Positions 1-62,660 of a stretch of DNA of 64,000 bases are shown here, in pieces (the stretch's first letter is position 1; every line of letters starts with the position of its first letter). Below the pieces are notes generated by a model that saw only the letters and a list, made by a program, of their open reading frames with translations, did not search any database and was not told where the DNA came from. The stretch is taken from contig MNUP01000033.1 in the NCBI GenBank assembly GCA_001871075.1, positions 437 to 64,436 on the forward strand, read 5' to 3'. This DNA comes from Candidatus Desantisbacteria bacterium CG1_02_49_89. GTDB taxonomy: Bacteria; Desantisbacteria; UBA1551. A program made the position numbers and the translations under genes.

Positions 1-503
1 TCACCGCCAGGATTATATTTAATAGTGAGATAGTCCTCGCCTGCCTCCCAGGAACATCCCGTTACATAGACGTTCCCTGTGTCGTCTACCGCAATATTCC
101 ATGCCTGGTCATCGCTATTGTTGTCATATCTTCTCTGCCAGACTGTATTGCCGTTTGAATCGTATTTAATTGTAAGGTAGTCATCGTCTATACCGTTTGA
201 GGAATATCCGGTTACGTAAATATTGCCTGAGTCATCAATGGCTATGCCGCCGTAGCCGAAATCGTGTTGTCCGCTGTCATACGCCTTCTGCCAAACTTCT
301 TCTGCATTGCTATATTCTCCCGGGCTTGGCGTTGTTTCCCCGCTCGAAGCTTTCGGTATCACGCCCGCCTCCTGCCCTCCTGTTATTACCTGCTCAGCCC
401 CGTCGGCGCTGCCGAAGCCGACGAAGAATGCTTCGCAGGTTAAAGGTTGAAGGTTAAAGGTTAAAAGGGTTAGAGCAATGACTGCTATTATCAGCTTTTT
501 CAT
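1..503 (-). CDS. Secreted SBBP/beta-propeller-repeat protein, N-terminal part only; the ORF runs off the left edge of the window
   Basis: The minus-strand ATG is at 503-501, giving MKKLIIAVIALTLL..., a signal peptide. Repeated '...YVTGYS..DYLTIKYDSNGN..W' units are typical of SBBP beta-propeller repeats. It is absent from the ORF track only because no stop codon falls inside the window. Confidence 0.55.
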   Translation of the reverse strand, partial: MKKLIIAVIALTLLTFNLQPLTCEAFFVGFGSADGAEQVITGGQEAGVIPKASSGETTPSPGEYSNAEEVWQKAYDSGQHDFGYGGIAIDDSGNIYVTGYSSNGIDDDYLTIKYDSNGNTVWQRRYDNNSDDQAWNIAVDDTGNVYVTGCSWEAGEDYLTIKYNPGG

Positions 504-518
504 CAAATCTCCGTCCAG

Positions 519-649
519 CGTGTCATTGCGAACCGAAGCCGCGAGCTGAAACCACGAGCAAAGCGTGGTGGGCAGCGTGGCGGGCGGTGAAGCAATCTAA
601 TGTTGCTTTATAGATTGCCGCGTCGCCAAAAGGCTCCTCGCAATGACAG
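519..649. repeat. MITE-like structured element E1, with terminal inverted repeats GTGTCATTGCGA / TCGCAATGACA and internal GAAGCAATCT / AGATTGC
   Basis: Seen directly. The terminal and internal inverted repeats are shared with the elements at 1733-1852 and 8757-8831. It carries a 57-nt insert that appears reverse-complemented in E2. Confidence 0.5.
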
Positions 650-1873: not shown

Positions 1874-3025
1874 TTAATAATTACGGTTTTTCTTTATGTT
1901 TTCCGAGTTCAGGGATATCAATCTTTTAAGTCTGGATTCCTTTTCTTCCTCGGATACCTTATCCTGCATGCCAAGCGCTTTCGTATTAGGGCGGTCAGAG
2001 TATTTGAACATAAAAGCGTTGTTGAAACGCGTTCCCTTTACTATTTCAAGGGTCTGCAGGAAATCTTCTTCGGTCTCACCCGGGAACCCCACTATTATAT
2101 CCGTGCTGAAAACCGCGCCTGGTATCCTGTCTTTTATCGTCTTGATCAGGTCTAAGTAATGCTTCCTTGTGTATCCCCTGTTCATCGCCTCAAGGATCCT
2201 GTCTGACCCTGACTGCAAAGGCAGGTGGAATTCTTTTTCCATTTTATCCGATGCCGCTATTGCCTCTATCAGTTCCAGCGTCATGTCTTTCGGGTGCGCT
2301 GTCATATAACTTATTTTTTCAATTCCCTTTATCTTCTCTATTTCTTTCAGCAGTTCAACAAAATCATTACTTTTTGACGCACGACGCACGACGCACGACG
2401 CACGACTGTCTTTATAGGAGCACACATTCTGCCCCAGCAGCATTATCTCTTTAAAACCACCTGCGGCCACCCTCTCTGCTTCCGCGATGATCTCATCTGC
2501 CGGCCTGCTCTGTTCTCTTCCGCGCAAATGCGGCACAACGCAGTAGGAGCAGAAGTTGTCGCACCCCCTTATGATAGGCACGTATGCCATTTCCATATTT
2601 TTCCTCTCCACCGGAGGGAGAGGATTAAGGTGAGGGGGATTAAATTTCCCCGTCTCAACGATCCTTGACTTATTCTCTATCGCCTTTTTTACGAAATCGC
2701 CGGCTATACCGATGTTTCCGGGGCCAATAACAACCTGGACCCAGGGAAACCTGTTTAAAATGCCTGTTTTCTCCTGCTCAGCAAGGCACCCGCACACGCC
2801 TACCAGCAGGCCCGGTTTCTTTTCCTTGAGCTTCTTTGTTTCGGAAAGTATCGTGTAGAACCGCTGGACCGCGTGCTCTCTCACAGAACAGGTATTGAAA
2901 ATTATAATATCTGCTTCATCCGCATCTTTTATCTGTCTGAATCCGTGTTCAACCAATTGCCCGGCAATGCATTGCGAATCGTATTCATTCATCTGGCATC
3001 CAAAGGTTTTTATGTAAAATTTCAT
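1874..3025 (-). CDS. MiaB/RimO-family radical-SAM methylthiotransferase
   Basis: N-terminal MTTase domain (IKTFGCQMNEYDS). Radical-SAM CxxxCxxC (CDNFCSYCVVP). At 383 aa it appears to lack a C-terminal TRAM domain. It contains an in-frame heptamer array (GACGCAC)x4. Confidence 0.75.
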   Translation of the reverse strand: MKFYIKTFGCQMNEYDSQCIAGQLVEHGFRQIKDADEADIIIFNTCSVREHAVQRFYTILSETKKLKEKKPGLLVGVCGCLAEQEKTGILNRFPWVQVVIGPGNIGIAGDFVKKAIENKSRIVETGKFNPPHLNPLPPVERKNMEMAYVPIIRGCDNFCSYCVVPHLRGREQSRPADEIIAEAERVAAGGFKEIMLLGQNVCSYKDSRASCVVRRASKSNDFVELLKEIEKIKGIEKISYMTAHPKDMTLELIEAIAASDKMEKEFHLPLQSGSDRILEAMNRGYTRKHYLDLIKTIKDRIPGAVFSTDIIVGFPGETEEDFLQTLEIVKGTRFNNAFMFKYSDRPNTKALGMQDKVSEEEKESRLKRLISLNSENIKKNRNY

Positions 3026-3315
3026 TTTAAAAACCTCTGGATGATTTTACCGCAGGTTCCTATCAATTTAATTTTTCTTTTCTTTGACATAGTTTTTATT
3101 TTTCTCTCTGTCTTCATCGCATGCCTGCGGAATACGTATACCTTAGCATATACCAGCTTCACGGGCCCCCTGCCTTTTACATATTTAGCCCCTTTGCCCG
3201 TGTTGTGCAGGGCGATCCGTTTTTTCAGGTTATTGGTATAACCCGTATAGAATGTCCCGTCTTTGCATTTAAGGATATATACGAAAAACCTTTTTATGCT
3301 TTTCGCGCGTTTCAT
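3022..3315 (-). CDS. GIY-YIG nuclease-domain protein (UPF0213/YhbQ-like)
   Basis: FFVYILKCKDGTFYTGYTNNLKKRIALHN is the classic GIY-YIG signature. 97 aa. It overlaps the upstream gene by 4 nt. Confidence 0.7.
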   Translation of the reverse strand: MKRAKSIKRFFVYILKCKDGTFYTGYTNNLKKRIALHNTGKGAKYVKGRGPVKLVYAKVYVFRRHAMKTERKIKTMSKKRKIKLIGTCGKIIQRFLK

Positions 3316-7820: not shown

Positions 7821-8041
7821 ATGGCCTCTTTAATAAATAGATTAAATATATAATATAAAACCTGAAAATAGAGAATTGAAAATTGACCACAATCTCGCAA
7901 TCTCCTTTATCTATTGCTCTATTTTCTATTGCTCCAGTTTTCCGCAGTGCATATCAAAAAGACAGAAAATAGAAAATTGAGCAATAGACCGTCCGCCAAT
8001 CATGCTGGGCGGACTCTGATTTTTCGCAGAGCGAAAAATCT

Positions 8042-8210: not shown

Positions 8211-8289
8211 TTTTAATACAGTTAAAAGTTGCCCGCCCCGACAACCATCGGGGCGAGGTCTCGCCCTGATTGAAATCAGGGCGGAAAAG
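8211..8289. repeat. Twin-hairpin element, copy A (CCCCGACAACCATCGGGG + CGCCCTGATTGAAATCAGGGCG)
   Basis: About 95% identical to 58728-58805. A diverged relative lies at 8623-8690. Confidence 0.5.
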
Positions 8290-8395
8290 CTGAAAGTTAA
8301 AAACTAAAATAGCCTGATAGAAAATAGAAAATTGAGAATAGACCGTCCCGATGTAACATCGGGACTCCACCACTTTTCCCTTGTTGGGAAAAGTG

Positions 8396-8470: not shown

Positions 8471-8756
8471 ACATCCTGGTTAATGATAAAGAAAAGATTG
8501 ATGAACCTTTCAGTCCGTCGCTCTTCCTGGGTGATCTGCATAAAAGAATGCGCGTCGCTTTGCTCTTCCACCCGTCGAAGACATAAGTGATGTCTTCGAC
8601 CCAGACTGAGCTACCTTGGCACGTTAAATACAGTGATGAGTGAAAAGTGTCGCCCCTTCGGCGACCCGCCGTTGAGGCGGGAAAAGTCAAAAGATCATAC
8701 AACAGACTGCCTGTCCGTAATTACTGATATTCGCTTAATTGATTGACGCTTTTTAT

Positions 8757-13016: not shown

Positions 13017-14153
13017 TTACTCCGATTTCTTTTCCGGATCAGGCAAAATATCTCCGTTGTCACCGCCCGGGGAGCCTGACGGTCCCTGCCGGGTGTCTTT
13101 GAATTCCTCAGCGGTCTTTCTTACTTTTTCTATCGAACCGAGAAAGACCTTAAGGATCAACGGGTCGAAATGCCTGCCTGCCTCGCTGCCCATTATTTCA
13201 ACCGCTTTTTCAATAGTGTAAGACGGTTTGTAGACCCTTCTGGAAGTAAGCGCGTCAAATACATCCGCGATGGCCGCTATCCTGCCGAAAACAGGGATGT
13301 CCTCGCCGGATATGCGCCTGGGGTAACCGGTCCCGTCGAATTTTTCGTGATGCACGAGCGCGATATCCCTTGCCGGCTCCAGGATCTCGTTGCCTGAACC
13401 CGAGAGGATCTGCGCGCCTATGAGCGGGTGCCTTTTCACTTCCTCATACTCCTCCGCGGTGAGCTTGCCCGGTTTCAGCAGAGTTGATTTGCATATCCCT
13501 ATCTTGCCTATATCGTGCAAAGGAGAAGCGTATTTTATAAGCTCCGCCTGTTTCTCGGTAAGCCCCAGGCTTCTCGCGATAATAACGCAGTAATCTCTCA
13601 TCCTCAGCAGGTGGCCGCCTACCAACCCGCTCGGGTATTCGGCGATCGCGCAGAGCTTCAGGATGGTCTCTGAGATCGCGTCCTTGTTCTCCCTGGCAAG
13701 CTTGCTGGTTTCCACATCGGAACATACCAGTTTTTTCATAAGGGATCTTTCCCATTCGATATCGCCCCTCTGCTCTCTCTGCTCAAGATGGCTGTCCACG
13801 GTCATGCGCAGCGACTGCGCGTCAAAAGGTTTCACGATATAATCACAGGCTCCGGACTTGAAGATCCTTATCGTGGAATCAAGCGCAGGAAAGCCGGTCA
13901 TCACTATAACGTCTGTTGAGGGCGAGACCGCCTTTGTTCTTTTCAGCAGTTCTTCCCCGCCCAGCCCCGGCATTTTTATATCCGTCAGCATTAAGGCAAA
14001 CTTAACCCTCTGGATGTATTCAAGCGCTTCCATCCCGCCTGACGCGGCGTAGGTGCTGATCGAAGGTTTCTCAAGGGCGCGCCTGCAGAAATTCCTTATA
14101 TCCTCCTCGTCTTCAACTATCAGTACGTTCTCGTTTTTTTTATGCCCTGCCAT
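13017..14153 (-). CDS. Response regulator with HD-GYP c-di-GMP phosphodiesterase domain
   Basis: REC (LIVEDEEDIRNF...D). HD...HHEKFDGTGYP motif. Confidence 0.85.
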   Translation of the reverse strand: MAGHKKNENVLIVEDEEDIRNFCRRALEKPSISTYAASGGMEALEYIQRVKFALMLTDIKMPGLGGEELLKRTKAVSPSTDVIVMTGFPALDSTIRIFKSGACDYIVKPFDAQSLRMTVDSHLEQREQRGDIEWERSLMKKLVCSDVETSKLARENKDAISETILKLCAIAEYPSGLVGGHLLRMRDYCVIIARSLGLTEKQAELIKYASPLHDIGKIGICKSTLLKPGKLTAEEYEEVKRHPLIGAQILSGSGNEILEPARDIALVHHEKFDGTGYPRRISGEDIPVFGRIAAIADVFDALTSRRVYKPSYTIEKAVEIMGSEAGRHFDPLILKVFLGSIEKVRKTAEEFKDTRQGPSGSPGGDNGDILPDPEKKSE

Positions 14154-17776: not shown

Positions 17777-17840
17777 TAGTTCCTATGTTCCCATGGTTCA
17801 CGTTTAACAATTTACATTTTGAATTTTGCATTTTGCATTT

Positions 17841-19241
17841 TTAATTATATTCCTCCCTCCTCCTTATCCCGTGTTTCCTCATAAGCGAATGGAAATTCTG
17901 CCTTTTCATTTTCACTTCCAACGCGGTCCTGCTGACGTTCCCGTTGTTCCTCTCCAGGGCGCTGGAAACAAACAGCTTTTCCAGTTCTTCAACAGCCTTT
18001 GCCCTCAGGTCTCTTTTTGCCTCTTTCAGCTTGTCGCTGCTCCTGGGGACCTCAGCCGATAACCGGACTTCATCTTTCCGGAATTCATTGGGAAGGTGGT
18101 TAGGCAGCACGGATTCATCCGCGACTGTAACTGCAAGCCTCTCAACAAGATTCTCAAGCTCGCGCACGTTGCCCGGCCAGTTATATTCCATCATCAGGTT
18201 CATTGCCTCAGGGGAAAATGACCTGACTTTTGAGCCTTTCCCGCGTATCGAAAGGAAATTCTCTATGAAGAGCGGTATGTCCTCTTTCCTTTCTCTAAGG
18301 GGAGGGATGTGCACCGGCACCACGTTCAAGCGGTAGAAAAGGTCTTCCCTGAAACTGCTGTCCTTCACCATTTTTTTAAGGTTTTTATTCGTCGCGGCGA
18401 TGATACGCACGTCCGCCTTCTTATTTACCACGTCCCCGACCCTCTTGAACTCCTTTTCCTGGAGCACCCTCAGCAGCTTTGCCTGGACACCGAGTGTGAT
18501 GTTGCCTATCTCATCCATGAAAAGAGTGCCGCCTTCGGCTGTTTCAAAAAGGCCTGGTTTATCCGCAGCTGCCCCGGTAAAAGAACCCTTCATATGGCCG
18601 AACAGCTCGCTTTCCATCAGGTTCTCGGAAAGGCTGCTGCAGTCAACGGATACGAAAGGCCTGCCTTTCCTTGGGCTGTTATGGTGTATGGCGTGCGCCA
18701 CAAGCTCCTTTCCTGTCCCGCTTTCTCCGGTTATCAGTATGGTGCTGTCAGTGCAGGACACCTTTTCAAGCAGGTCGTATATTTTTTGCATGGCCTGGCA
18801 TTTTCCCATTGCTTTTCCGAACGCGTATCTGTCTCCCAGTTCTTTTTTAAGCCTCTTGTTCTCTTTGATCATACCTTTGGATTCCAGCATCTTGGATACC
18901 TTTACGCGCAATTCCTCAGGCATGAACGGCTTGGGTATGTAGTCTGAAGCCCCAAGTTTCATTGCCTCCACCGCGTCGCCTACAGTGGAATAGCCTGTGA
19001 TCAGCAGTATGCTTATTTCCGGATACGCCTTCTTCGTCCGCCTGAGCAGTTCCATGCCGTTCATTCCCGGCATATTCACGTCCGCGATCACGATATCCGG
19101 GACTTTTTCGCCTATTTTCCTGAATGCTTCCGCCCCGTTCAGAGCTGTCTCGATAATGTAATCGCAGCTCTTCAGGATCGAAGCGCAGGCATCGCATATT
19201 TCCTTCTCATCATCCACGATCAGGATCCTGTATTTCTCCAT
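17841..19241 (-). CDS. NtrC-family sigma-54-dependent response regulator
   Basis: REC. AAA+ sigma-54 activator core (GESGTGKE, GAFTGA-like GSFTGA, ESELFGH). C-terminal Fis-type HTH. Confidence 0.85.
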   Translation of the reverse strand: MEKYRILIVDDEKEICDACASILKSCDYIIETALNGAEAFRKIGEKVPDIVIADVNMPGMNGMELLRRTKKAYPEISILLITGYSTVGDAVEAMKLGASDYIPKPFMPEELRVKVSKMLESKGMIKENKRLKKELGDRYAFGKAMGKCQAMQKIYDLLEKVSCTDSTILITGESGTGKELVAHAIHHNSPRKGRPFVSVDCSSLSENLMESELFGHMKGSFTGAAADKPGLFETAEGGTLFMDEIGNITLGVQAKLLRVLQEKEFKRVGDVVNKKADVRIIAATNKNLKKMVKDSSFREDLFYRLNVVPVHIPPLRERKEDIPLFIENFLSIRGKGSKVRSFSPEAMNLMMEYNWPGNVRELENLVERLAVTVADESVLPNHLPNEFRKDEVRLSAEVPRSSDKLKEAKRDLRAKAVEELEKLFVSSALERNNGNVSRTALEVKMKRQNFHSLMRKHGIRRREEYN

Positions 19242-27929: not shown

Positions 27930-28160
27930 TTGTCTCTCCGAAAGTTTGCCCTACTTTCAAGCGCGATGAATCGCGCCGCTACATAAACATAGCAGTAACT
28001 TGACACTTGATACTTGACTCTTGATACTAATTTAACCACGGATTCTCACGAATTTCCACGGATTTTCAAATTGAATTAACTTGTAAACTACACTTAAACC
28101 TTAGGTTAACACTGTTTTAGATAAAATCTTTGTCGTTGATTCATAACTCATAATTCATAA

Positions 28161-29000
28161 TTAGTCTTCTAGTATTGCGACCGGCCTGACCCAGCCGGCG
28201 CTTGCCCCCTTGATTTTTACCGGAAAACACATTACACTGAAACCGTGAGATTTCGGTATCCTGTCAAGGTTCGCCATTTTCTCGATGTGGCAGTATTCCT
28301 TCTTTCTCCCGGCGAAATGCGCGGGCCAGAGGAAACTTTTGTCCTTTGTGCGGGTATAGTCATCCATCATGTTCCTGAAAGGCCGGTCAAGCCCGTACCC
28401 GTCAGTGCCGATTATTTTAACTCCCCGGTCTAACAGCCACAGGACCGCGTCCCCGCTTAATCCGGGGTGGGAAAAAAAATAATCTTTCCTGCCCCAGTGC
28501 TTGTCAGCGCCGGTCATTATAAGGACGATATCGCCTGCGCTTATTTTATAATCTATTTTATCCAGCGCGGACCGAAGGTCGTCCGCGGTAATAAAATCCC
28601 CCTGCTTTTTTGCCCTGAAATCAAGCACGACGCCGTTTCCCGAGCACCATTCAAGCGGGACCTCATCTATAGTTTTGGATGGCCTGCCTTCCGATAACGG
28701 CCCGAAATGATAAGGAGCGTCTAAGTGGGTTCCCGTATGGGTATCCCCGTTTATGGTTTCCCAGGCAAGGCCCATTCCGTCAGGAAAGTCCCTGTGTGTC
28801 ACCTTCTTTATCCCGGTTAAATGCAATAAAAGGTTCTTAAGGGTGATAAATACCGAATGCCCGGAAATAAGAGCGGCAAGCCCAAGCAGGTCCGCTCCCT
28901 GTTTATGGTTAAGGTATTTTATCCTGGCAGGTTCCGGCTCAACCGGGGAATCATCAAGCGCAACGCTCAGATCAATGAATTTCAAGCAAATCCTCCCCAT
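28161..29000 (-). CDS. Cyclase-family protein (kynurenine formamidase-like metal hydrolase)
   Basis: HxGTHxDAPxH motif (GDTHTGTHLDAPYHFG). Confidence 0.7.
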   Translation of the reverse strand: MGRICLKFIDLSVALDDSPVEPEPARIKYLNHKQGADLLGLAALISGHSVFITLKNLLLHLTGIKKVTHRDFPDGMGLAWETINGDTHTGTHLDAPYHFGPLSEGRPSKTIDEVPLEWCSGNGVVLDFRAKKQGDFITADDLRSALDKIDYKISAGDIVLIMTGADKHWGRKDYFFSHPGLSGDAVLWLLDRGVKIIGTDGYGLDRPFRNMMDDYTRTKDKSFLWPAHFAGRKKEYCHIEKMANLDRIPKSHGFSVMCFPVKIKGASAGWVRPVAILED

Positions 29001-29048
29001 AACCCACGCTTTAAAACGTGTCAGCGTGTCAACGTATCAACGGGTCAG

Positions 29049-29118: not shown

Positions 29119-29455
29119 GAAAACACTAAAGAAATTATTTACAGGGAACTTAAGAGAACTTAAAAGGCTATAAGATATTTTTCACAGGGATTTAAAGAGA
29201 TTTAAAAAAATCAGCCACGGATGTCCACGTATAATACTCACTTGTCAACTATATAAACTGCATTTGCAACCACGGATTCCCACGGATTTTCACAGATTAC
29301 AACTTTGCAAACTCTGTAAACCATGTAAACTGTATTTGCAACTACGCGATTTCACTCGATTTTCACAAGATTAGTCTTTCACTGGACACTGGCCACTTAA
29401 AGTGAGTCCCCCTTCTTGCTTTTCTGAGAAAGCAGGGGGGCAACTGGACACTGAA

Positions 29456-37191: not shown

Positions 37192-37302
37192 AATTTTCTC
37201 CGCCCGAAAAAATGATTACACCGATTACGCAAGATGATTACGCGGATTCGATCTTGGTACTAAACACAACTATGGATTTATACTTTGTAAACTTTGAAAA
37301 CT

Positions 37303-38439: not shown

Positions 38440-38568
38440 CCAGATTCTTCGCGGAGCGAATGCAAGTAAGCAAACACTGAGAATAGAGAATTGAAAATAG
38501 ACCGCAATGTCGCTTTGTCTTTTCTATTCTCGATTTTCTATTGCTCCATTGCTCTAGTCCCGATCTTA

Positions 38569-42900: not shown

Positions 42901-43006
42901 TTCTCTCTCCTTTTATTTGATGTCAGCGATAAAAATAGATTTCAGCGATTTAAACCCATTTTAATTCATCGCTGCCATCGTTTCTGCTATCGCTGTAATC
43001 AATATT

Positions 43007-43801
43007 TCAGTCGCAGACGCCTTTCCCAGCGTCTATGCAGCTTTGCAGCGCTTCTTTTGAAGGCTTCAAAGGCAAGAACTCAAGCCCGATGTAGCCGCTG
43101 AAGCCAGTTTCCTTTATCTTTTGGATTATGTTCCTGTAGTTAAGCTCCCCTGTTCCGAACTCGTGCCTGCCCGGGACATCCGCCGAATGGAAATGCCCTA
43201 TAAGGCCTATGTTCTCCGCTACGTTCTGTATTATGTTCCCTTCCGTTATCTGCTGGTGGTAAATGTCATAAAGCAATTTCACGCTTTTGCTTCCGGTTTC
43301 TTTTATAACCTGGAACCCTTCAAGTGAAGTGCTCAGGTAATATCCCTTGTGGTCCACCAGGATGTTAAGCGGCTCCAGCACAAGCGTTACCCCCGCGCTT
43401 TCCGCTGCCGGTGCGGCTGCTTTCAGCGAATTGACGATGCTTTCATGCTGCGCCTGCCTCGGAACTCCGGCCATTTCTTTGCCGGTCGTCACGATCAGGG
43501 TTGTCACGGATAATTTCTTTGCGGCAGTAATTGTTTCTTCAACTGCTTTCACGAACGCACCCTTGTTTTTCGGATCTACTATCTGCAGGAACGGGTCAAT
43601 GCCGAAACTGGAGATCTTCATCCTGTTTTTTTCAATTTTCCGCAGGATCCCTTCCATATCCTTGTTCTTCCAACCCCAGAACTCGCATGCGGAAAAACCC
43701 ATTTTGGCATAAGCGTCTATCCTGTCCGTAAACTCCAGTTCCCTGAAAATTATTTCAGCGCACGGCGAAAGCCTGAGCATAACACTCTCCTTTTTACACA
43801 C
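43007..43801 (-). CDS. Sugar-phosphate isomerase/epimerase (xylose-isomerase-like TIM barrel; hydroxypyruvate-isomerase-like)
   Basis: AP-endonuclease-2/XI-like TIM pattern. 264 aa. Confidence 0.65.
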   Translation of the reverse strand: MCKKESVMLRLSPCAEIIFRELEFTDRIDAYAKMGFSACEFWGWKNKDMEGILRKIEKNRMKISSFGIDPFLQIVDPKNKGAFVKAVEETITAAKKLSVTTLIVTTGKEMAGVPRQAQHESIVNSLKAAAPAAESAGVTLVLEPLNILVDHKGYYLSTSLEGFQVIKETGSKSVKLLYDIYHQQITEGNIIQNVAENIGLIGHFHSADVPGRHEFGTGELNYRNIIQKIKETGFSGYIGLEFLPLKPSKEALQSCIDAGKGVCD

Positions 43802-45035
43802 CTTCGGCTGTTTTTAATATTATCCCGGCCAGCCTTGCGGCTGCACCGCCCTCTCCCATTACTTCCTTTAACCTGGCAGACATACCGGCCCTGAGCTCAC
43901 TGTTCCTGATCAATTCCGATGCCTTCTCCAGCACCATACCAGGATCTACAAAATCCTTTATTTCGGGCACGACTTCCTGTCCGGCTTTCTGATTTGGTAT
44001 GGCGGTATATTTCAGCCGCATGCCGAAATCCAGCACGAGTTTTTTCTTAAGGATCCTGCCTATCAGGGGTATATACTGGACGTATCCTGCGATCCCATCA
44101 AGCGGTATTTCTTCGGGTTTGTTTAAAGGCACCACTACGATCATGGGGCAGCCTGCTGCCGCGATCTGCGCCGTATTTGTGCCCGGTATGGTCAATATAA
44201 GGTCGCAGGCGTTCATTACGTCATACGGCATTTCCTGGGCCCGGATGACCCTTGTTCCGTCTTCCGTTGTTATCAGGCCGTCCGCGAATTCCGCTTTTAT
44301 CCCTTCAAGCGCGCCGTTCTGTCCCCCGGCCTTAACGGCTTCTGACAGCTGGCTGTCAGTTACAAAGGAAGCGCGGCTCAGGACAAACCTGCTTTCCGGG
44401 AATTTTCCGCGGATCAGGCTGCAGCATTTAAGAAAAAAAGATGTCATGTGTTTTATCTGGTAAGGCCTGCTTCCCGGAAATATCCCTACCAGGATCTCGT
44501 TTTTTGCAGCACCGCACCTGCTTCTTGATTCTTCTCTGGAAAGACCGGGTTTCACGGCTTCAACGAAAAGATCTCCCGCAATTTCTATCTTTCCCGCATC
44601 AATACCCTTTTCAGAAAGCCTCTTTTTGCTGTTTTCGTCAGTGACAATGAATTTTCTAAAAAACGCGTTATAGAACCTGCCGGCGTCATGGGTGTATGCC
44701 ACGGCCGGGTAACCGAGGCGCCCGGAGATCAGGACCGAGTGCATGTAATCGCTTCCGAGGTGGACAAGAACGCCCTTCTTTGCGAACCCGCCCTTTACCC
44801 CTTTGTTAAGGAAAAGGAATTTTAGGTATTCACCCGGGCTGAAGACATGATCGACCCCGGGAATATTTTTCGCTATCTCTGTTTCTGTCCCGCTCGCATA
44901 CTGGCAATACGGTATAAATATAATTATCCTGTCACGTTCGACGTCCGACGTTCGACGTTCGACGATTTCTTTAACAACAGGCGTCACCCACCCTTTGATC
45001 TCGCCGGGGCTGTTCGTCACGATCACTATATCCAT
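43794..45035 (-). CDS. Lipid-A-disaccharide synthase (LpxB)-like glycosyltransferase (GT19-like)
   Basis: N-terminal IVTNSPGEIKGW resembles the LpxB GE.SGD motif. 413 aa. It contains the in-frame heptamer array (CGTTCGA)x4. The family call is uncertain. Confidence 0.45.
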   Translation of the reverse strand: MDIVIVTNSPGEIKGWVTPVVKEIVERRTSDVERDRIIIFIPYCQYASGTETEIAKNIPGVDHVFSPGEYLKFLFLNKGVKGGFAKKGVLVHLGSDYMHSVLISGRLGYPAVAYTHDAGRFYNAFFRKFIVTDENSKKRLSEKGIDAGKIEIAGDLFVEAVKPGLSREESRSRCGAAKNEILVGIFPGSRPYQIKHMTSFFLKCCSLIRGKFPESRFVLSRASFVTDSQLSEAVKAGGQNGALEGIKAEFADGLITTEDGTRVIRAQEMPYDVMNACDLILTIPGTNTAQIAAAGCPMIVVVPLNKPEEIPLDGIAGYVQYIPLIGRILKKKLVLDFGMRLKYTAIPNQKAGQEVVPEIKDFVDPGMVLEKASELIRNSELRAGMSARLKEVMGEGGAAARLAGIILKTAEGV

Positions 45036-45040
45036 TTTAG

Positions 45041-45071
<31 letters not shown>

Positions 45072-45140
45072 GTTAGATTATAATTATTTCATAATTTCTA
45101 TTTCTAACAAACTATAAAACGAACCAACTAACAAACTCTA

Positions 45141-46274
45141 TTAGTCCTGGACCCCGATCACCCATTGCCTGGCAAGCCAGGAACGGTCTATCCTGTATGC
45201 TTTTTCCGGGCACAGTTCATGGCAGCAGTAACAGCTGATACATTTCTTGTAGTTTATGCTTGCCTTTCCTTCAACCATTGTGATGGCCTTGACCGGGCAG
45301 TTCAGGAAACAAACCTTGCATCCGGTGCATTTTTCCCTGATGACAGCCGGATGCACCCACAGTAATTTTGTGGTAAGGAACTGGAAAAAGGGATAAACGA
45401 ACCTTGGGACTCTTTTTAGTATCTTATTGGCGTTGTCGACGCGCTCGAAATCAGGCACTTTACAATCCCGCAGGTTCTCGCCTTTTATTTCTATCTTTTC
45501 CAGCCTTCCCTCCCCTATCCCTTTCTGGTGGGCTATGCGGGTGGTGTCTATGTCCAGCGGGTTATAACCTATGATCTCCGAGGAAACAGCGTCAAGCGAA
45601 ACGCAGTCATAGCTCGCCATGATAAGCCCTATTTTTTTCGGTTTCCCGCCGGACGGACCATGGCCTTCCATCCCATATACCGCATCCATTACACCAAGCA
45701 CGGGTTTTTTAATGGAAAAAATTTCAACCATTCTTTCAGCGAAATCCTCGGGGTGCGGGTTTTTACAATGTATCTCGCCTTTGTAAAAACCCGGAAGTAT
45801 GCCGAACATGTTCTTTATGCATCCCGTGAACAACGTCAGGTTGTGGGTTTTGAGCTTCGGCAGGTCTATGATCGCGTCCATGCCGAAGATCGTATCTGCT
45901 ACGTAGAAATCTCCGTGCTTTACGGGTTTCGCAAGGCTCAGCAGCTCAGCTCCCTCTTCGAGCGCGACGTTCCTGAATCCCGCCACTTCCAGGGCTTTTG
46001 AAACGTTGGCGTAGGCGTTGCCGCAGTTGTCGCCGATAAAAGGCCTGGCGCCGCATTCCTTCACTATCCTTGTCACCGCGCGCAGCACCGACGGGTGCGT
46101 GGTTATGGCGCTGTCCGGCTTGCCTGCCAGAAGCAGGTTCGGCTTGAGAAGGACCTTCATGCCGGGCTTTATTTTTTCTTTAAGGTCGCCTATAAGAGAA
46201 AGAGCGTTTCTTACTGCCTTCTCGATCCTTTCGTTCTCATAAGTGTCACACCTGATGATCGATACAGTGCTCAT
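45141..46274 (-). CDS. DUF362-domain protein with C-terminal 2x[4Fe-4S] ferredoxin domain
   Basis: CTGCKVCFLNCP and CISCYCCHELCP cluster motifs. Confidence 0.7.
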   Translation of the reverse strand: MSTVSIIRCDTYENERIEKAVRNALSLIGDLKEKIKPGMKVLLKPNLLLAGKPDSAITTHPSVLRAVTRIVKECGARPFIGDNCGNAYANVSKALEVAGFRNVALEEGAELLSLAKPVKHGDFYVADTIFGMDAIIDLPKLKTHNLTLFTGCIKNMFGILPGFYKGEIHCKNPHPEDFAERMVEIFSIKKPVLGVMDAVYGMEGHGPSGGKPKKIGLIMASYDCVSLDAVSSEIIGYNPLDIDTTRIAHQKGIGEGRLEKIEIKGENLRDCKVPDFERVDNANKILKRVPRFVYPFFQFLTTKLLWVHPAVIREKCTGCKVCFLNCPVKAITMVEGKASINYKKCISCYCCHELCPEKAYRIDRSWLARQWVIGVQD

Positions 46275-46290: not shown

Positions 46291-46812
46291 TCATGTCCAG
46301 CCGTCTATTACCCTCTTGACCACCCTCTTAGAAAGCTTCTGGATAACCTCTTCTATTGCGTCATTTTCCAGTTCTACCTCCAGACCGCCTGTTAAGGATG
46401 AAACCGTGGTGAAATTCTCCAAGTTATCCTCACGCCACAGGACATTGTTTTCTTTTACGTCCTTCAGCCAGAAAGACAGCACCATGCGGACCTTATATTC
46501 CTGCACCTTCATCTGCTCCGTGTAAGACAGGGGCTGCAGGTCATACCGGGAAATTTCCCCGTAAAGAACTGCGTCCGCTTCCTTTTCGCCGGCAACGGTC
46601 AGCCTTCCGTCAATAATGAACTCCCTGGTAACTGACTGCAGTATTTTTTCCGGGAGGTCGGGCCTGTAGCTCTTATTTTCAAACCCCGTTATGCAGATCT
46701 TTTTTATATAAACAGGAAGAGGGAAAAACGTATCATAGGTGCAACCGTTTAAAAACAGCGCCAGGCAACAACTGACAAGTAACAAGTAGATACCGCGGGA
46801 TTTCGTACTCAT
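46291..46812 (-). CDS. Lipoprotein, possibly LptE-like
   Basis: Signal peptide with lipobox (LFLNGC). Size and position upstream of pth. Weak family evidence. Confidence 0.4.
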   Translation of the reverse strand: MSTKSRGIYLLLVSCCLALFLNGCTYDTFFPLPVYIKKICITGFENKSYRPDLPEKILQSVTREFIIDGRLTVAGEKEADAVLYGEISRYDLQPLSYTEQMKVQEYKVRMVLSFWLKDVKENNVLWREDNLENFTTVSSLTGGLEVELENDAIEEVIQKLSKRVVKRVIDGWT

Positions 46813-48137: not shown

Positions 48138-48237
48138 TTTATTTCTCCTTACTTATTGTCTTTTTATCTTTAGACCGTAATTCGTCGTTTATCTGCAATA
48201 ATCACCGTAATCTCAGTTTAAATCACTGTAATCATTT

Positions 48238-53332: not shown

Positions 53333-53587
53333 TTAATATAGTCAGATATATAAATAGAATTGAGAATTTAAAAACGGGTCGGCTTCGAACCATATTTAAA
53401 AGCTGAAAATGGATAATAGAGCAATAGACCATCCCGATGTAACATCGGGACTCTATTTTTTCGCTCTGCGAATGCTCAATACTGAGAATGGAAAATAGAG
53501 CAATAGACCGCAATTTCGCAATTCCTTTCTCTATTTTCTATTGTTCTATTGCTCCATTGCTCTATTTTTTCGCTCTGCGAAAAAATG

Positions 53588-53659: not shown

Positions 53660-53770
53660 TTAAAATACAGTTGTCAGTTGTCGGTTCTCAGTTGTCAACT
53701 AAAAATCAAACTCTTTGATCTATTTTCAATTTTCCTTTGCTCGATTGCTCTGATCCCGATTTTATCGGGA

Positions 53771-53800: not shown

Positions 53801-54029
53801 AATCTTCGCCAGAACCGGGTGAAGTCTCAGATTCACCCGGAGCCGGGGAATTTTGCTGACGCCCCGATGGTAGTCATCGGGGCTTTACCAGTGGCGCAAA
53901 ATTCCTTTCAAGTCTTTGTCAAAACTTGAAAATGGAAAATTGAACAATAGACCGCAATCTCCTTAAGTATTTATCTATTGCTCTATTCTCTATTTTCGAT
54001 TGCTCCGATTTTTCGCCTCGCGAAAAATC

Positions 54030-54111: not shown

Positions 54112-54174
54112 TTACAATCTATTCTCCATTTTCTATTTTCGGACTCTGAAAATAGAACAATAGAGCAATTGACC

Positions 54175-54358: not shown

Positions 54359-54475
54359 ATATTACTACGATGAAAGAAAATAGAAAATGGAAAATAGACC
54401 ACAATCTCGCTATTCCTTAATCCATTGCTCTATTCTCTATTGCTCGATTGTTCTGTTTTTCCCGAAGGGAAAAAC

Positions 54476-55111: not shown

Positions 55112-55236
55112 TTCGCCTCCAGCTTTCTAATACAGTAACAAGTAACAAGTGACAAGTAACAAGTTTACAGCTTTTAACTGGATACTGGTCGCCACTACGG
55201 TCACCACTTCGGCGACCTGCCGACGCGGCATGGCGA

Positions 55237-57596: not shown

Positions 57597-57820
57597 GTGT
57601 CAGAATGTCAGAGCAGAATTATGGCTCTTTGACTTATATCTTCAATACTTTTTAATCAAGCCGCGTTTTCCTTTCTATATTTTCAATTGCTCTGTTTTCA
57701 GCTCTGCGAAATAAAATCTGAAAATGGAAAATAGAGCAATAGACCGAAATGTCGCTTCTTTTTTCTCTATTTTCTATTGTTCTATTGCTCCATTGCTCTG
57801 ATTTTCCCTGCGGGAAAATC

Positions 57821-58116: not shown

Positions 58117-58223
58117 ACACCCATAAAAACAGTGTCAAAGAGTCAGAGTGTCAGAGTGTCAAAGTAAAAGATAAGAATCCTTAGATATTTGGAGCGAAGG
58201 GAAACTGCCTGTCCGCCGACTTG

Positions 58224-58805: not shown

Positions 58806-58817
58806 ATAAAAATTAAA

Positions 58818-59408: not shown

Positions 59409-59515
59409 ATTTAATTATGAATTATGAATGCTGAGTTATGAATCAACGGCAAGGATTTCAATTTAAATTAAATTCCTTGACTCATAATTCATAACTCATA
59501 ACTCATAATTTACTG

Positions 59516-60244: not shown

Positions 60245-60422
60245 TAAACCTCCGTTTGATTTAATTATGAATTATGAATTATGAGTTATAAGTTATGAAT
60301 CAACTGCAAGGAATCAAATTGTAACTCAGGGCTTTAGCCCTGATTCATAACTTTGCCCTTCGGGCAACATTCTCGTGTGGTTTTGCAGAATGTTTTCGAA
60401 TTCCATAACTCATAATTCATAA

Positions 60423-60947
60423 TTATTTGTAGATACTTTTACCGTATGAATTAATCCCGACCAAAACAGGGAAATCTTTCAGTTCAAGCTCATATATCGC
60501 TTCCGGACCCAGATCCCTGAAAGCGATCACTTTCGCTTTTGTTATTCTGCGGGAAAGCAGTGCCCCTGTTCCGCCAACAGCCACAAAATAAACCGCGCCG
60601 GATCTTATTATGGCCTTTTTTACGTCTTCTGAACGGTTACCCTTGCCTATCATTCCTTTAATACCGAGTTTAAGCAATAGCGGAGTGTAACGGTCCATCC
60701 TGGAGCTTGTTGTCGGGCCGCACGAGCCGATCGGCATGCCTTTCGGAGCCGGTGCCGGTCCCGCGTAATATATCGTCTGTCCCTTCCAATCTATCGGCAG
60801 TTTCCAAGCTTTGAGCTTTGAGCTTTGAGCTATTCTTTTATGCGCAGCGTCCCTTGCTGTGTATACTGGTCCCGTCAGCAGAACCTTTTCGCCTGCCCTT
60901 AATTTCTTTATGTCAATATTATTTAATGGAAGTATTATTTTTTTCAT
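60423..60947 (-). CDS. Class I fumarate hydratase / tartrate dehydratase beta-type subunit (Fe-S hydro-lyase C-terminal domain)
   Basis: LTGPVYTARDAAHKRI signature. 174 aa. It contains the in-frame (AGCTTTG)x3 heptamer array. Confidence 0.8.
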   Translation of the reverse strand: MKKIILPLNNIDIKKLRAGEKVLLTGPVYTARDAAHKRIAQSSKLKAWKLPIDWKGQTIYYAGPAPAPKGMPIGSCGPTTSSRMDRYTPLLLKLGIKGMIGKGNRSEDVKKAIIRSGAVYFVAVGGTGALLSRRITKAKVIAFRDLGPEAIYELELKDFPVLVGINSYGKSIYK

Positions 60948-60982
60948 CTTTTAACTTGTTACTTGTTACTTGTTACTGGATA

Positions 60983-62527: not shown

Positions 62528-62660
62528 CTGTTCTCCTTTATATGATTACACCGATTACAAAACCGATTACACCGATTTAAAAATGATTACTGTGATTTCA
62601 AAAGAGATTACGGTGTTACTGCATTCAACTTTTAACGTTTAACTTTTAACGTTTAACTGG

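What the first reader, a model, noticed from the sequence alone, without database searches (positions are those of the whole stretch)
2386..2416. Pervasive 7-8-nt tandem repeat arrays, including in-frame arrays inside conserved enzymes
Seen: short tandem arrays of 3-5 units occur throughout the window.

Arrays inside CDSs:
- (AGGTTAA)4 at 437-465, in the SBBP signal peptide
- (GACGCAC)4 at 2386-2416, in the MiaB-like gene
- (CGTTCGA)4 at 44935-44964, in the LpxB-like gene
- (AGCTTTG)3 at 60806-60830, in the fumarate hydratase beta subunit gene

Arrays outside CDSs:
- (ATTTTGM)3 at 17813-17841
- (ACTTGAY)4 at 27997-28027
- (TTAGTTGG)4-5 at 45037-45076, abutting the LpxB-like start
- (GTAACAA)4 at 55134-55163
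- (GTGTCAGA)3 at 58130-58164
- (TTGTTAC)3 at 60954-60976
- (TTTTAAC/GTTTAAC)4 at 62627-62657
- (CAGTTGT)3 at 53669-53692

Because 7 is not a multiple of 3, gain or loss of one unit in the intragenic arrays would shift the reading frame. That would make a slipped-strand on/off switch in otherwise conserved enzymes.

The repertoire resembles the heptameric STRR repeats of some cyanobacteria. Here, however, the host encodes sigma-54 machinery, which cyanobacteria lack.
Basis: partly seen in the sequence, partly recalled or inferred. Interest (0 to 1): 0.6.

Follow-up and report, generated by a model that had tools for sequence, protein, structure and literature searches.

The report
Slippage-prone heptamer repeat arrays, Desantisbacteria
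This uncultured groundwater bacterium carries short 7-8-base tandem repeats at about 100 times the usual density; most form the arms of intergenic hairpin elements, a few sit inside genes, and one has lost a unit in some natural populations, which cuts the tRNA-modifying enzyme MiaB in two.

Summary
The arrays are real and far beyond chance. There are 62 non-overlapping TRF arrays against 11.8 expected. Strong period 7-8 arrays are about 100 times denser than in 1.27 Mb of control genomes. The flagged array lies at 2376-2406, not 2386-2416. The window is Candidatus Desantisbacteria.

Two classes exist.

1. Intergenic arrays (42 of 62, in 13.6% of the DNA). They fall into a few unit families. 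About half pair with a reverse-complement array to form long hairpins. These hairpins span intercistronic spacers or follow tRNA genes. The AATTATG family is a dispersed palindromic element of about 100 nt.

2. Rare coding arrays. Their units are stop-free and they sit in signal peptides or loops.

Slippage is directly supported. Across about 45 other assemblies of the same population, the only unit-sized indels fall in the two perfect arrays of four or more copies. One is -7 nt in MiaB, which frameshifts it into 223 + 143 aa. The other is -8 or -16 nt in the octamer array before the LpxB-like gene.

The MiaB array equals a 10-nt proto-repeat, seen in a relative, plus three units. The same loop carries heptamer arrays in other Desantisbacteria, an Omnitrophica and a Nitrospirae.

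An adaptive on/off switch is unproven. Verdict: a new member of a known kind (STRR-like heptanucleotide repeats).

The parts
2376..2406 (-). Perfect heptamer array, (GTCGTGC)x4.4 on the coding strand. It encodes SRASCVVRRAS in a MiaB loop. Copy number is polymorphic: 4.4 units in frame, 3.4 units frameshifted.
1874..3025 (-). MiaB-type radical SAM methylthiotransferase gene (383 aa, no TRAM domain) that hosts the array.
   Evidence: TIGR01574: 413 bits against a cut-off of 355; model positions 1-372 of 437.
45040..45076 (-). Perfect octamer array, (CAACTAAC)x4.6, ending 4 nt before the LpxB-like ATG. It is the 3' arm of the intercistronic hairpin. Alleles of 4.6, 3.6 and 2.6 units exist.
45104..45137 (-). 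Degenerate complementary array (TTTGTTAG-like). It is the 5' arm of the same hairpin and starts just after the stop codon of the DUF362 gene.
   Evidence: 35-nt arms, 83% complementary; dG -29.9 kcal/mol, z -6.2.
44934..44964 (-). (TCGAACG)x4.4, with one mismatch. It encodes VERRTSDVERD near the N-terminus of the LpxB-like glycosyltransferase. No variation was seen.
437..465 (-). (TTAACCT)x4.1 in the signal peptide of a 256-aa protein. Its single T>C mismatch removes the in-frame TAA.
60807..60831 (-). Perfect (CAAAGCT)x3.6. It encodes AQSSKLKAW in the fumarate hydratase beta subunit. It is not an insertion relative to homologues.
46767..46788 (-). (ACTTGTT)x3.1 in the hydrophobic core of the LptE lipoprotein signal peptide (YLLLVSCC).
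60954..60977 (-). Perfect (AACAAGT)x3.4 that fills the 35-nt spacer before the FumB start codon.
59409..59515 (-). Complete AATTATG-family palindromic element. It has an (ATTATGA)n arm, an inner hairpin CAAGGAATTTA..TCCTTG, and a (TCATAAT)n arm. It spans the spacer from stop codon to next start codon.
   Evidence: (dG -37.6 kcal/mol, z -7.3).
60245..60422 (-). AATTATG-family element with extra inner hairpins, between FumB and RNase PH.
   Evidence: (arms 95-100% complementary).
28139..28162 (-). Solo AATTATG-family arm that starts at the stop codon of gene 28161-29000.
42901..43006 (-). Intercistronic hairpin built from CAGCGAT and ATCGCTG repeats.
   Evidence: (dG -29.2 kcal/mol, z -5.4).
57728..57798 (-). 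R/Y array hairpin downstream of tRNA-His: a GAGCAATA/GAAAATA array, a loop, and a TCTATTGC/TCTATTTTC array.
   Evidence: z -4.0.
54384..54445 (-). R/Y array hairpin downstream of tRNA-Arg. Its Y arm also pairs with 54118-54140 across tRNA-Lys (23 nt, 96% complementary).
53936..53997 (-). R/Y array hairpin downstream of tRNA-Leu.
   Evidence: z -4.4.
53499..53562 (-). R/Y array hairpin downstream of tRNA-Gly.
   Evidence: z -5.4.
38487..38554 (-). R/Y array hairpin downstream of tRNA-Leu.
   Evidence: z -1.8, weak.
7919..7988 (-). Y/R array hairpin downstream of tRNA-Val.
   Evidence: z -5.0.
55134..55164 (-). (ACTTGTT)x4.4 before the PilZ gene. It belongs to the AACAAGT unit family.
53668..53697 (-). 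(ACAACTG)x4.3. The unit is the same as the Nostoc PCC 7120 intergenic repeat (TTGTCAG)n.
   Evidence: PMC2408588.
58131..58165 (-). (TTGACACT)x4.4 octamer array upstream of tRNA-Arg.
27998..28028 (-). (GTCAAGT/ATCAAGT)x4.4. Three Logan contigs end here.
62627..62658 (-). (AAACGTT/AAAAGTT) array, a perfect 14-mer x2.3, directly after the stop codon of gene 62661-63548.
17811..17846 (-). (TCAAAAT)x4.4 that overlaps the stop codon of the sigma-54 activator gene.
29015..29047 (-). (GACACGTT)x4.1 just before the start of gene 28161-29000.

Best explanation
The window is from a Candidatus Desantisbacteria genome that carries an STRR-like load of short tandem arrays. Units are 7-8 nt, typical length is about 4.4 copies (31 nt), and density is about one array per kb.

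Shown:
1. Most arrays are intergenic and belong to a few recurring unit families.
2. About half of the intergenic arrays have a reverse-complement partner array nearby. Together the two form long hairpins. These either bridge a stop codon and the next start codon or follow tRNA genes.
3. At least one family (AATTATG) is a dispersed palindromic element of about 100 nt. It is found in both orientations and also as solo arms.
4. Arrays survive inside genes only where the unit is free of stop codons in all three frames and the peptide is tolerated, that is, in signal peptides and loops.
5. Arrays change length by whole units. Only the two perfect arrays of four or more copies are polymorphic among natural assemblies.
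6. The MiaB array equals the 10-nt proto-repeat GTCGTGCGTC, seen in a relative, plus three units (21 nt, 7 aa). The -1-unit allele truncates MiaB.

Inferred:
- Unit gain and loss happens by slipped-strand mispairing during replication. Loops of 7-8 nt are beyond what mismatch repair removes.
- In-frame states are reached by passing through frameshifted states. That is possible because MiaB loss is tolerated.
- The hairpins act at the transcript level, in mRNA and tRNA-precursor processing or stability or in occluding the start region. Alternatively they are simply the structure of a REPIN/MITE-like mobile element.
- The on/off behaviour of MiaB is most likely a by-product of this genome-wide repeat load, not a dedicated switch.
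For: - Identity of the organism: (P0001 is 100% identical and NCBI names it Candidatus Desantisbacteria).
- Enrichment and period spectrum.
- Intergenic bias: 42 of 62 arrays lie in 13.6% of the DNA. 19 of 42 intergenic arrays have an inverted partner better than all shuffles, against 0 of 20 coding arrays.
- Hairpins: with z-scores from -4 to -7.3.
- Unit families: 43 identical-unit pairs against 2.9 expected.
- Element architecture.
- Same density outside the window.
- Stop-codon filter: 8 of 9 coding units are stop-free against 8 of 28 intergenic units. The single mismatch in 437-465 removes the in-frame TAA.
- Polymorphism: across about 45 loci at 99.7-100% identity, the indels are -7 nt (L001, L002), -8 nt (L007, L010) and -16 nt (L009) in the two perfect arrays, plus one 3-nt and three 1-nt indels elsewhere.
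- The -7 allele sits on two different SNP backgrounds, and other samples of the same study carry the full-length allele.
- Proto-repeat and +3 units: L127 has 1.4 copies, the window 4.4, and L034 has a perfect (GTCGAAC)x4.4 at the same place.
- The array-encoded segment is a low-confidence loop (pLDDT below 50 at residues 212-218) and is +6 aa relative to PDB 7mjv.
- Octamer alleles change the hairpin stepwise: -29.9, -26.5 and -22.9 kcal/mol.
- Literature: heptanucleotide repeats are the most abundant long SSR class in many bacteria, and polymerase slippage has been proposed as the cause (as reviewed in PMC4679880 and PMC4692102). Xanthomonas and Nostoc heptamer repeats prefer four units and include inverted pairs (PMC4692102).
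Against: - No read-level data were available. Each assembly gives only a majority allele, so switching rate and within-sample heterogeneity are unknown.
- The strong mode at 31 nt (9 of 37 period-7 arrays; 19 of 37 lie between 29 and 32 nt) is not predicted by free slippage.
- Recurrence of identical units at unrelated loci points to transposition or templated copying for part of the repertoire, not in-situ slippage. For example, TCGAACG occurs in the window's LpxB-like gene and in a relative's MiaB.
- The FumB array replaces a segment of equal length instead of adding one.
- Heptamer arrays recur in the same MiaB loop in three phyla. This is more than a passive 'tolerant loop' model predicts.
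- Sense-strand folding is only slightly better than antisense: 8 of 12 regions, with 38 G-U pairs against 20. An RNA-level role for the hairpins is therefore not established.
- No transposase or RAYT was seen in the window.
Confidence: 0.7

Rival explanations
1. The MiaB array is a selected contingency locus. On this view a frameshift-prone heptamer array is maintained in a dispensable loop so that the population reversibly switches ms2i6A37 tRNA modification on and off. That would be a 'translational phasevarion' and would change the decoding of UNN codons as a bet-hedging strategy.
For: - ON and OFF alleles both occur as majority alleles in different samples of one site, and the OFF allele sits on two SNP backgrounds.
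- Perfect arrays at the same loop occur in four lineages: the window, L034, L032 (CGACGGG x3.7) and the Omnitrophica L046.
- A 168-nt degenerate heptamer array occurs at the same loop in a Nitrospirae. In that 9.9-kb contig it is the only heptamer array.
- The typical loop is 8-9 aa in 71 of 111 homologues, and no arrays occur in 79 of 80 control genomes.
- Persistence of uninterrupted repeats despite their frameshift load is the classical argument for selected mutability.
Against: - The OFF allele is rare: 2 contigs against 52 index blocks for the ON protein.
- MiaB is not a surface or host-interaction gene.
- Other relatives have lost or never had the array (L030, L033, L127), or carry decayed arrays (P0004, L035).
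- The genome-wide repeat load gives a sufficient non-adaptive explanation.
- Reversibility, switching rate and phenotype are all untested.
- The enzyme lacks a TRAM domain, so even its substrate is uncertain.
Confidence: 0.2
2. The intergenic arrays are cis-regulatory sites. They would be reiterated binding sites for an RNA- or DNA-binding protein, or RNase III or other processing stems. Together they would form a post-transcriptional network like the one proposed for TAACTGA repeats in Beggiatoaceae. On this view copy number tunes the expression of the downstream gene.
For: - Arrays lie precisely between stop codons and the next start codon or ribosome-binding site.
- Several arrays abut start codons that lack a Shine-Dalgarno sequence, as for the LpxB-like and Ham1-like genes.
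- A promoter-like site ends right before the octamer array. That would make the array the 5' UTR.
- Hairpin stability changes stepwise with unit number.
- tRNA genes are followed or enclosed by complementary arrays, like processing stems.
- The sense strand folds slightly better and has more G-U pairs.
- PMC4679880 proposes a translational role for heptamer repeats upstream of start codons.
Against: - Many different units are used, so no single binding protein fits.
- The AATTATG element occurs in both orientations and as solo arms, which suits a mobile element better than a positioned regulator.
- There are no transcript data.
- The sense-strand preference is weak.
- There is no Rfam match.
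Confidence: 0.2
3. The arrays are products or parts of mobile DNA only. They would be REPIN- or MITE-like elements with tandem-repeat arms, or stacked target-site duplications. They would be spread by a transposase, and slippage would play no role in their origin.
For: - Identical units recur at many loci.
- Copies of one roughly 100-nt palindromic element are about 85-90% alike by eye (I did not compute their identity). At least four are complete and three partial within 79 kb, and they occur in both orientations.
- Modules recombine: an AATTATG arm occurs with an ACTTGTT arm.
- The length is uniform at about 31 nt.
Against: - Unit-sized gains and losses do occur in situ.
- The MiaB array is derived from a local 10-nt proto-repeat present in a relative.
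- Coding arrays have no inverted partner.
- No transposase or RAYT gene lies in the 79 kb examined.
- Target-site duplications are not evident.
Confidence: 0.15
4. The arrays or their variants are assembly or sequencing artefacts, or chance matches.
For: - Short-read k=31 Logan contigs break at arrays: three end at 28026 and one at 45068.
- Assemblies report only consensus alleles.
Against: - The same arrays appear in dozens of independent assemblies from ENA, JGI, NCBI and Logan, made with different assemblers.
- The arrays are much shorter than the reads and than the k=127-141 k-mers.
- The variant alleles recur in independent samples (L001 and L002; L007 and L010).
- Shuffles give about 0 strong arrays.
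Confidence: 0.02

Closest known systems
Cyanobacterial STRR (short tandemly repeated repetitive) heptamers and related Nostoc/Anabaena intergenic heptamer repeats
   Same: - Units are 7 nt, in arrays of a few copies.
- Several unit families each recur at many loci.
- There is a strong intergenic bias, including spacers within operons.
- Some arrays occur as inverted pairs (PMC4692102).
- One unit, (TTGTCAG)n, is shared with Nostoc PCC 7120 (PMC2408588).
   Different: - The host is a Candidatus Desantisbacteria, not a cyanobacterium.
- The classical units CCCCAGT, TTGGTCA and CAACAGT (recalled from memory of Mazel et al. 1990) are absent as tandem copies.
- 8-nt units are also common here.
- The arrays are shown here to be arms of defined palindromic elements and to flank tRNA genes.
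Heptanucleotide long simple sequence repeats (LSSRs) of prokaryotic genomes (Mrazek et al. 2007, as summarised in PMC4679880 and PMC4692102)
   Same: - Period 7 is over-represented relative to other long periods.
- The bias is intergenic.
- Replication slippage is the proposed cause.
- About four units are preferred in Xanthomonas and Nostoc.
   Different: - Those surveys found such repeats mainly in large, GC-rich genomes (Burkholderia, Xanthomonas, Actinobacteria) and in cyanobacteria.
- Here the genome has 48% GC and belongs to a candidate phylum.
- The units are AT-rich and not G-quadruplex-forming.
- The arrays are organised as hairpin arms.
TAACTGA direct repeats of marine Beggiatoaceae, some cyanobacteria and Bacteroidetes (PMC4679880)
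   Same: - They are heptamer direct repeats of 2-6 copies.
- They are mostly intergenic and often lie directly upstream of start codons.
- Units in the forward orientation contain stop codons.
   Different: - That system uses one unit, almost always as direct repeats (169 direct sets against 1 inverted).
- Here there are many units, TAACTGA itself is absent as a tandem, and about half of the intergenic arrays are in inverted pairs.
SSR-driven phase variation (contingency loci), for example the 7-bp repeats controlling HMW1A in Haemophilus influenzae (PMC8262952, PMC12721329)
   Same: - Whole-unit gain or loss occurs in a repeat whose unit is not a multiple of 3.
- In-frame and out-of-frame alleles coexist in natural populations.
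- A second polymorphic array lies in a putative 5' UTR or promoter-proximal position.
   Different: - The host is a free-living groundwater bacterium, not a host-adapted pathogen.
- The target is a housekeeping tRNA-modification enzyme.
- Copy numbers are short (3-5 units).
- Reversibility, rate and phenotype are unknown.
REP/BIME/REPIN elements and bacterial MITEs (PMC3116915)
   Same: - They are short, dispersed, intergenic palindromic elements that can form hairpins.
- They occur in both orientations and sit in operon spacers.
- Singlet (solo-arm) and doublet forms both exist.
   Different: - The arms here are internally periodic, being tandem 7-8-nt units.
- No RAYT or transposase has been identified.
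- Arms of different families combine.
- The arms themselves undergo unit slippage.

Membership tests
Long simple sequence repeats (heptanucleotide class) | Head-to-tail copies of a 5-11-nt unit, present more often than chance. | tested here: met
Long simple sequence repeats (heptanucleotide class) | Length changes occur by whole units between closely related genomes. | tested here: met
   -7, -8 and -16 nt, and only in the two perfect arrays.
Cyanobacterial STRR | Heptamer unit families, each dispersed at many mostly intergenic loci. | tested here: met
   the AATTATG family has 8 arrays with the identical unit plus 3 with the one-mismatch unit AACTCAT, AACAAGT has 4 and AAAATAG has 4.
Cyanobacterial STRR | The canonical units STRR1-3 (CCCCAGT, TTGGTCA, CAACAGT; recalled from memory). 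| tested here: not met
   no tandem copies. Only (TTGTCAG)n matches a Nostoc 7120 repeat (PMC2408588).
Cyanobacterial STRR | The host is a (heterocystous) cyanobacterium. | tested here: not met
   Candidatus Desantisbacteria. A sigma-54 activator gene is present.
Contingency locus / phase-variable gene | A repeat tract lies within the ORF or promoter and its unit length is not a multiple of 3. | tested here: met
Contingency locus / phase-variable gene | In-frame and out-of-frame alleles are both present in natural populations. | tested here: met
Contingency locus / phase-variable gene | Switching is reversible and frequent within a clonal lineage. | not testable with these tools
   This needs read-level data or culture. 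The two SNP backgrounds of the OFF allele are only suggestive, because metagenome consensus sequences are chimeric.
Contingency locus / phase-variable gene | The switched phenotype is under fluctuating selection. | not testable with these tools
   No data are available.
REPIN / MITE-like dispersed palindromic element | Multiple copies of one short palindromic element in intergenic DNA, in both orientations. | tested here: met
   complete copies at 59409-59515 and 60245-60422, plus two outside the window (one reversed). Partial copies lie at 28139-28162 and at two flank sites.
REPIN / MITE-like dispersed palindromic element | A cognate transposase (RAYT or IS) and target-site duplications. | tested here: inconclusive
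   None is found among the called genes of the 79 kb. The rest of the genome could not be reached.
TAACTGA repeat system | Direct repeats of the unit TAACTGA. | tested here: not met
   four single copies and no tandem copies.
MiaB (tRNA ms2i6A37 methylthiotransferase) | UPF0004 plus radical SAM plus a C-terminal TRAM domain. | tested here: inconclusive
   The protein passes the TIGR01574 equivalog cut-off, but the TRAM domain is missing. The close relatives P0002-P0012 also lack it.

The most novel reading that the evidence does not exclude
The loop after the LLGQNVxSY motif of MiaB may be a conserved hot spot that holds frameshift-prone heptamer arrays in at least three phyla: Desantisbacteria, Omnitrophica and Nitrospirae. 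On this reading it works as a heritable on/off switch of a tRNA anticodon-loop modification, that is, phase-variable translation fidelity in free-living bacteria. It may also be linked to the small GIY-YIG nuclease gene found immediately upstream of MiaB in both array-bearing lineages whose upstream context is known.
Probability: 0.2. Interest if true: 0.8.

Novelty: new member of a known kind. Interest (0 to 1): 0.5.

Why it matters
Heptanucleotide repeats are the commonest long microsatellites in bacteria, yet their origin and function have stayed unresolved since the STRRs were described in 1990.

This population offers a natural experiment.
- Dozens of public assemblies from one groundwater site already show which arrays change: only the perfect arrays of four or more copies.
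- They show how arrays change: by whole units.
- They show the consequence: a truncated MiaB and stepwise-shortened hairpins in front of an envelope-biogenesis gene.

The data also show that many 'microsatellites' here are in fact the arms of dispersed hairpin elements and tRNA-flanking stems. This links the SSR question to the REPIN/MITE question.

If the recurrent MiaB-loop arrays prove to be selected, this would be the first phase-variable tRNA-modification enzyme.

Tried and rejected
1. Public collection scans.
- Two scans of metagenome contigs for the MiaB array flanks found nothing. One used a variable gap and one was exact. The pattern itself works on the window and loci, so this organism is not in that collection.
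- A genome-contig scan for the AATTATG element arm found nothing.
- The search for related loci with MiaB returned no Desantisbacteria (best hit 46% identity). I used those 80 loci as controls instead.
- As a result, a whole-genome census and a census of alleles across JGI samples could not be done.

2. Rfam at gathering threshold gave only the 10 tRNAs.

3. Chance and artefact were rejected (and recurrence in independent assemblies).

4. I considered that the coding arrays might lie outside the true ORFs because of mis-called starts. This was rejected. The N-terminal motifs upstream of the LpxB-like and FumB arrays align with homologues.

5. I considered that the split PfkB gene just outside the window was repeat-driven. 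It is a 1-nt indel.

6. I considered stacked target-site duplications as the origin of the arrays. Nothing in the data supports this, and the proto-repeat in L127 argues for local expansion.

7. Comparing sense and antisense folding, to decide between an RNA and a DNA role for the hairpins, gave only a weak signal.

8. An error (wrong frame) and limits cost calls and produced no result.
Full report
**1. Observation**

TRF on the window returns 69 rows, or 62 non-overlapping arrays. Period 7 and period 8 dominate: 24 and 12 arrays, plus 3 of period 14. Thirty second-order Markov shuffles give 11.8 arrays in total, 1.4 of period 7 and 1.7 of period 8. Exact arrays of three or more copies number four for period 7 and one for period 8, against none in 20 shuffles.

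The flagged one is (GACGCAC)x4.4, perfect, at 2376-2406 and not at 2386-2416. The other eleven are within 1-5 nt of the stated coordinates.

As an external control I used 80 miaB-centred loci from other bacterial genomes, 1.27 Mb in all. At TRF score >=40 and >=3 copies, period 7-8 arrays occur at 0.0032/kb there. In this genome they occur at 0.316/kb (25 arrays in 79 kb), roughly 100-fold more. The 15 kb flanking the window on both sides has the same density and the same units.

**2. Source**

The MiaB-like protein is 100% identical to a protein that NCBI names as from Candidatus Desantisbacteria. The same population has been assembled many times from groundwater metagenomes held by ENA, JGI, NCBI and Logan. 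Nearly all genes are on the minus strand. The coding fraction is 86.4%.

**3. Two classes of array**

Forty-two of the 62 arrays lie in the 13.6% of the DNA that is intergenic. For periods 7, 8 and 14 the figure is 29 of 39.

*Intergenic arrays.*
- Nineteen of the 42 have a reverse-complement partner array within 350 nt that beats every one of 20 shuffles. None of the 20 coding arrays does.
- Whole intercistronic spacers fold as single long hairpins whose arms are an array and its complement. Spacer 59409-59518 folds at -37.6 kcal/mol (z -7.3), 45036-45143 at -29.9 (z -6.2), and 42901-43009 at -29.2 (z -5.4).
- The long spacers hold ten tRNA genes. These are followed, and in one case enclosed, by hairpins made of a purine-rich array (GAGCAATA/GAAAATA) and its pyrimidine-rich complement. 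Most z-scores are -4 to -5.4. tRNA-Lys is enclosed by 23-nt arms that are 96% complementary.
- Heptamer units recur. There are 43 identical-unit pairs among 36 arrays, against 2.9 expected.
- The AATTATG family is a dispersed element of about 100 nt. It consists of an (ATTATGA)n arm, a conserved inner hairpin CAAGGAATTTA..TCCTTG, and a (TCATAAT)n arm. It is found in both orientations, as solo arms, and once combined with an arm of another family.
- Array lengths peak sharply at 31 nt, or 4.4 copies.
- Sense-strand folding is only marginally better than antisense. Whether the hairpins matter as RNA or as DNA stays open.

*Coding arrays.*
- These have no inverted partner.
- Eight of nine have consensus units free of stop codons in all three frames. 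Among intergenic units only 8 of 28 are stop-free.
- The exception, 437-465, escapes an in-frame TAA through its single T>C mismatch.
- They lie in two signal peptides (437-465, and 46767-46788 in LptE) and in three loops.
- The MiaB segment is +6 aa relative to PDB 7mjv. It is modelled as a low-confidence loop, with pLDDT below 50 at residues 212-218, between strand 193-197 and helix 222-230.
- The FumB array is not an insertion. It is +1 aa relative to PDB 2isb.
- The LpxB-like segment has the same length in most orthologues of 51-62% identity. P0129 carries a similar peptide, VRRSTLDVRSD.

**4. Slippage is observed**

I compared the window with about 45 loci from other assemblies at 99.7-100% identity. 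Together they cover the whole window, with 8 to 12 loci compared for each part. All indels found are:
- -7 nt in the MiaB array, in L001 and L002.
- -8 nt (L007, L010) and -16 nt (L009) in the octamer array at 45040-45076.
- One 3-nt indel.
- Three 1-nt indels.

The two varying arrays are the only perfect arrays with four or more copies.

The -7 allele gives exactly the protein P0121, which ends ...CVVRQKVMILLNC*. It splits MiaB into ORFs of 223 and 143 aa. It is the consensus allele in two samples, where it sits on different SNP backgrounds. Other samples of the same study carry the full-length allele.

The octamer array is the 3' arm of the hairpin that ends 4 nt before the LpxB-like ATG. 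A promoter-like TAGAAA-18-TATAAT ends immediately upstream of it. The 4.6-, 3.6- and 2.6-unit alleles lower the hairpin stability stepwise: -29.9, -26.5 and -22.9 kcal/mol.

**5. History of the MiaB array**

At the homologous codons the states are:
- L127 (P0006, 58% identity): GTCGTGCGTC, which is 1.4 copies.
- The window: the same unit at 4.4 copies, that is +21 nt or +7 aa.
- L034 (P0003, 61% identity): a perfect (GTCGAAC)x4.4.
- L032 (P0007): (ACAAGTAG)x4.6 plus a perfect (CGACGGG)x3.7.
- L035 (P0008): decayed AATGAAA-type heptamers.
- L030 and L033: no array.

Outside the phylum:
- An Omnitrophica (L046, 46% identity) has a perfect 14-nt x2.8 array in the same loop.
- A Nitrospirae (L126) has 23.6 degenerate CAGAAYA units, 168 nt in all, at the same loop.
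- Several further homologues have long loops with 7-aa periodicity.
- The usual loop is 8-9 aa. Seventy-nine of the 80 control genomes show no array there.

In-frame states differ by three units. Lineages must therefore pass through frameshifted states, and that fits the OFF allele seen in the population.

**6. Interpretation**

The best-supported reading is a genome-wide, STRR-like load of slippage-prone 7-8-nt arrays.
- Most arrays are structural parts of dispersed palindromic elements and tRNA-flanking hairpins.
- A few are tolerated in proteins wherever stop-free units fall in permissive segments.
- Perfection of the array predicts instability.

Three of the four coding arrays are invariant. 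An adaptive switch is not demonstrated.

Several observations keep more interesting readings alive:
- Arrays recur in one MiaB loop across three phyla.
- Array length is uniform at about 31 nt.
- The unit TCGAACG occurs both in a relative's MiaB and in this genome's LpxB-like gene.

**7. Comparison with what is known**

- Over-representation of heptanucleotide repeats, and a polymerase-slippage explanation for it, were reported for many bacteria (summarised in PMC4679880 and PMC4692102).
- Xanthomonas and Nostoc heptamer repeats prefer four units and include inverted pairs (PMC4692102).
- Nostoc PCC 7120 has dispersed intergenic (TTGTCAG)n and (TTGTTAG)n repeats (PMC2408588). The first is identical to the unit at 53668-53697.
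- TAACTGA repeats sit upstream of start codons in Beggiatoaceae (PMC4679880).
- 7-bp repeats drive phase variation of HMW1A in Haemophilus (PMC8262952).
- The canonical STRR1-3, TAACTGA and GGGAATC units are absent here as tandem copies.
- I found no paper on repeats in Desantisbacteria or on a phase-variable miaB.

I therefore file this as a new member of a known kind, with one reading (a MiaB contingency locus) that would be new if true.

**8. Limits**

- No reads were available, so I have no within-sample allele frequencies and no switching rates.
- The rest of the genome could not be fetched.
- Metagenome consensus sequences are chimeric, so linkage arguments are weak.
- The hairpin functions are inferred from folding alone.

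Noticed in passing
window 3022-3315 (minus strand); L126 2957-3295: A 97-aa protein with only a GIY-YIG domain overlaps the MiaB start by 4 nt. A homologue of 47-50% identity sits immediately upstream of the array-bearing MiaB of a Nitrospirae contig. Only 1 of 80 control miaB loci (L083, which has no array) has a homologue nearby. Relatives without an expanded array (L030, L127) lack it. This could be a structure-specific or homing-type nuclease linked to the repeat hot spot, or mere conserved synteny.
   Followed up: partly
window 521-598 and 1773-1850: A perfect 78-nt inverted repeat flanks the zinc alcohol dehydrogenase gene at 747-1718. In relatives MiaB is followed directly by the flp/tad pilus genes. 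The ADH gene, a 256-aa protein gene and the SBBP gene therefore look inserted here. One assembly (L045) has a 132-nt deletion inside the ADH gene.
   Followed up: no
window 1874-3025: The MiaB homologue lacks the C-terminal TRAM RNA-binding domain. It matches TIGR01574 positions 1-372 of 437. Its closest relatives P0002-P0012 also lack the domain, while more distant hits have it.
   Followed up: partly
window about 8515-8625 (minus strand): Upstream of tRNA-Phe lies a second copy of its 5' part (GCCAAGGTAGCTCAGTCTGG). It is interrupted by a hairpin-containing insert and followed by ..AGAGCGACGGACTGAAA. It looks like a disrupted or pseudo-tRNA-Phe.
   Followed up: no
window 62544-62611, 48138-48237, 37192-37302; also 28036-28065 and 29270-29288: A different class of repeat is present. 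GTAATC/GATTAC-containing motifs and ATCCGTGG motifs are reiterated every 10-12 nt, about one helical turn, in several spacers upstream of genes. They look like reiterated protein-binding sites, not heptamer arrays.
   Followed up: no
window 47482-47534: An 18-nt (6-aa) repeat x2.9 encodes EEGEEGEKGEEGEK in the acidic C-terminal tail of ribosomal protein L25/TL5.
   Followed up: no
window 8214-8301 and 58731-58817: An 88-nt dispersed double GC-rich hairpin (CCGCCCCGA..TCGGGGCGAG CTCGCCCTGATT..AATCAGGGCGG) occurs in two tRNA regions at 93% identity. A related TCAGGGCTAAAGCCCTGAGTTACA hairpin is shared with another Desantisbacteria species, where it is tandemly repeated with periods of 26 and 62 nt in L033.
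   Followed up: no
window 45035 and 59408 (start codons): The LpxB-like and Ham1-like genes have no recognisable Shine-Dalgarno sequence, and an array arm runs to within 4-5 nt of the ATG. Most other genes in the window have GGAGG- or AAGGAG-type sites.
   Followed up: no
L037 (L038 coordinates 13359-13626; just outside the window start, SBBP gene): One assembly carries a roughly 270-nt stretch with about 50 clustered substitutions in the SBBP-repeat gene, while the rest of its 21 kb is nearly identical. This suggests a recombined divergent allele.
   Followed up: no
window 28026 and 45068: Three Logan (k=31) contigs end at the 27998-28028 array and one ends inside the octamer array. These arrays therefore fragment short-k assemblies and may be under-represented in such data.
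   Followed up: no
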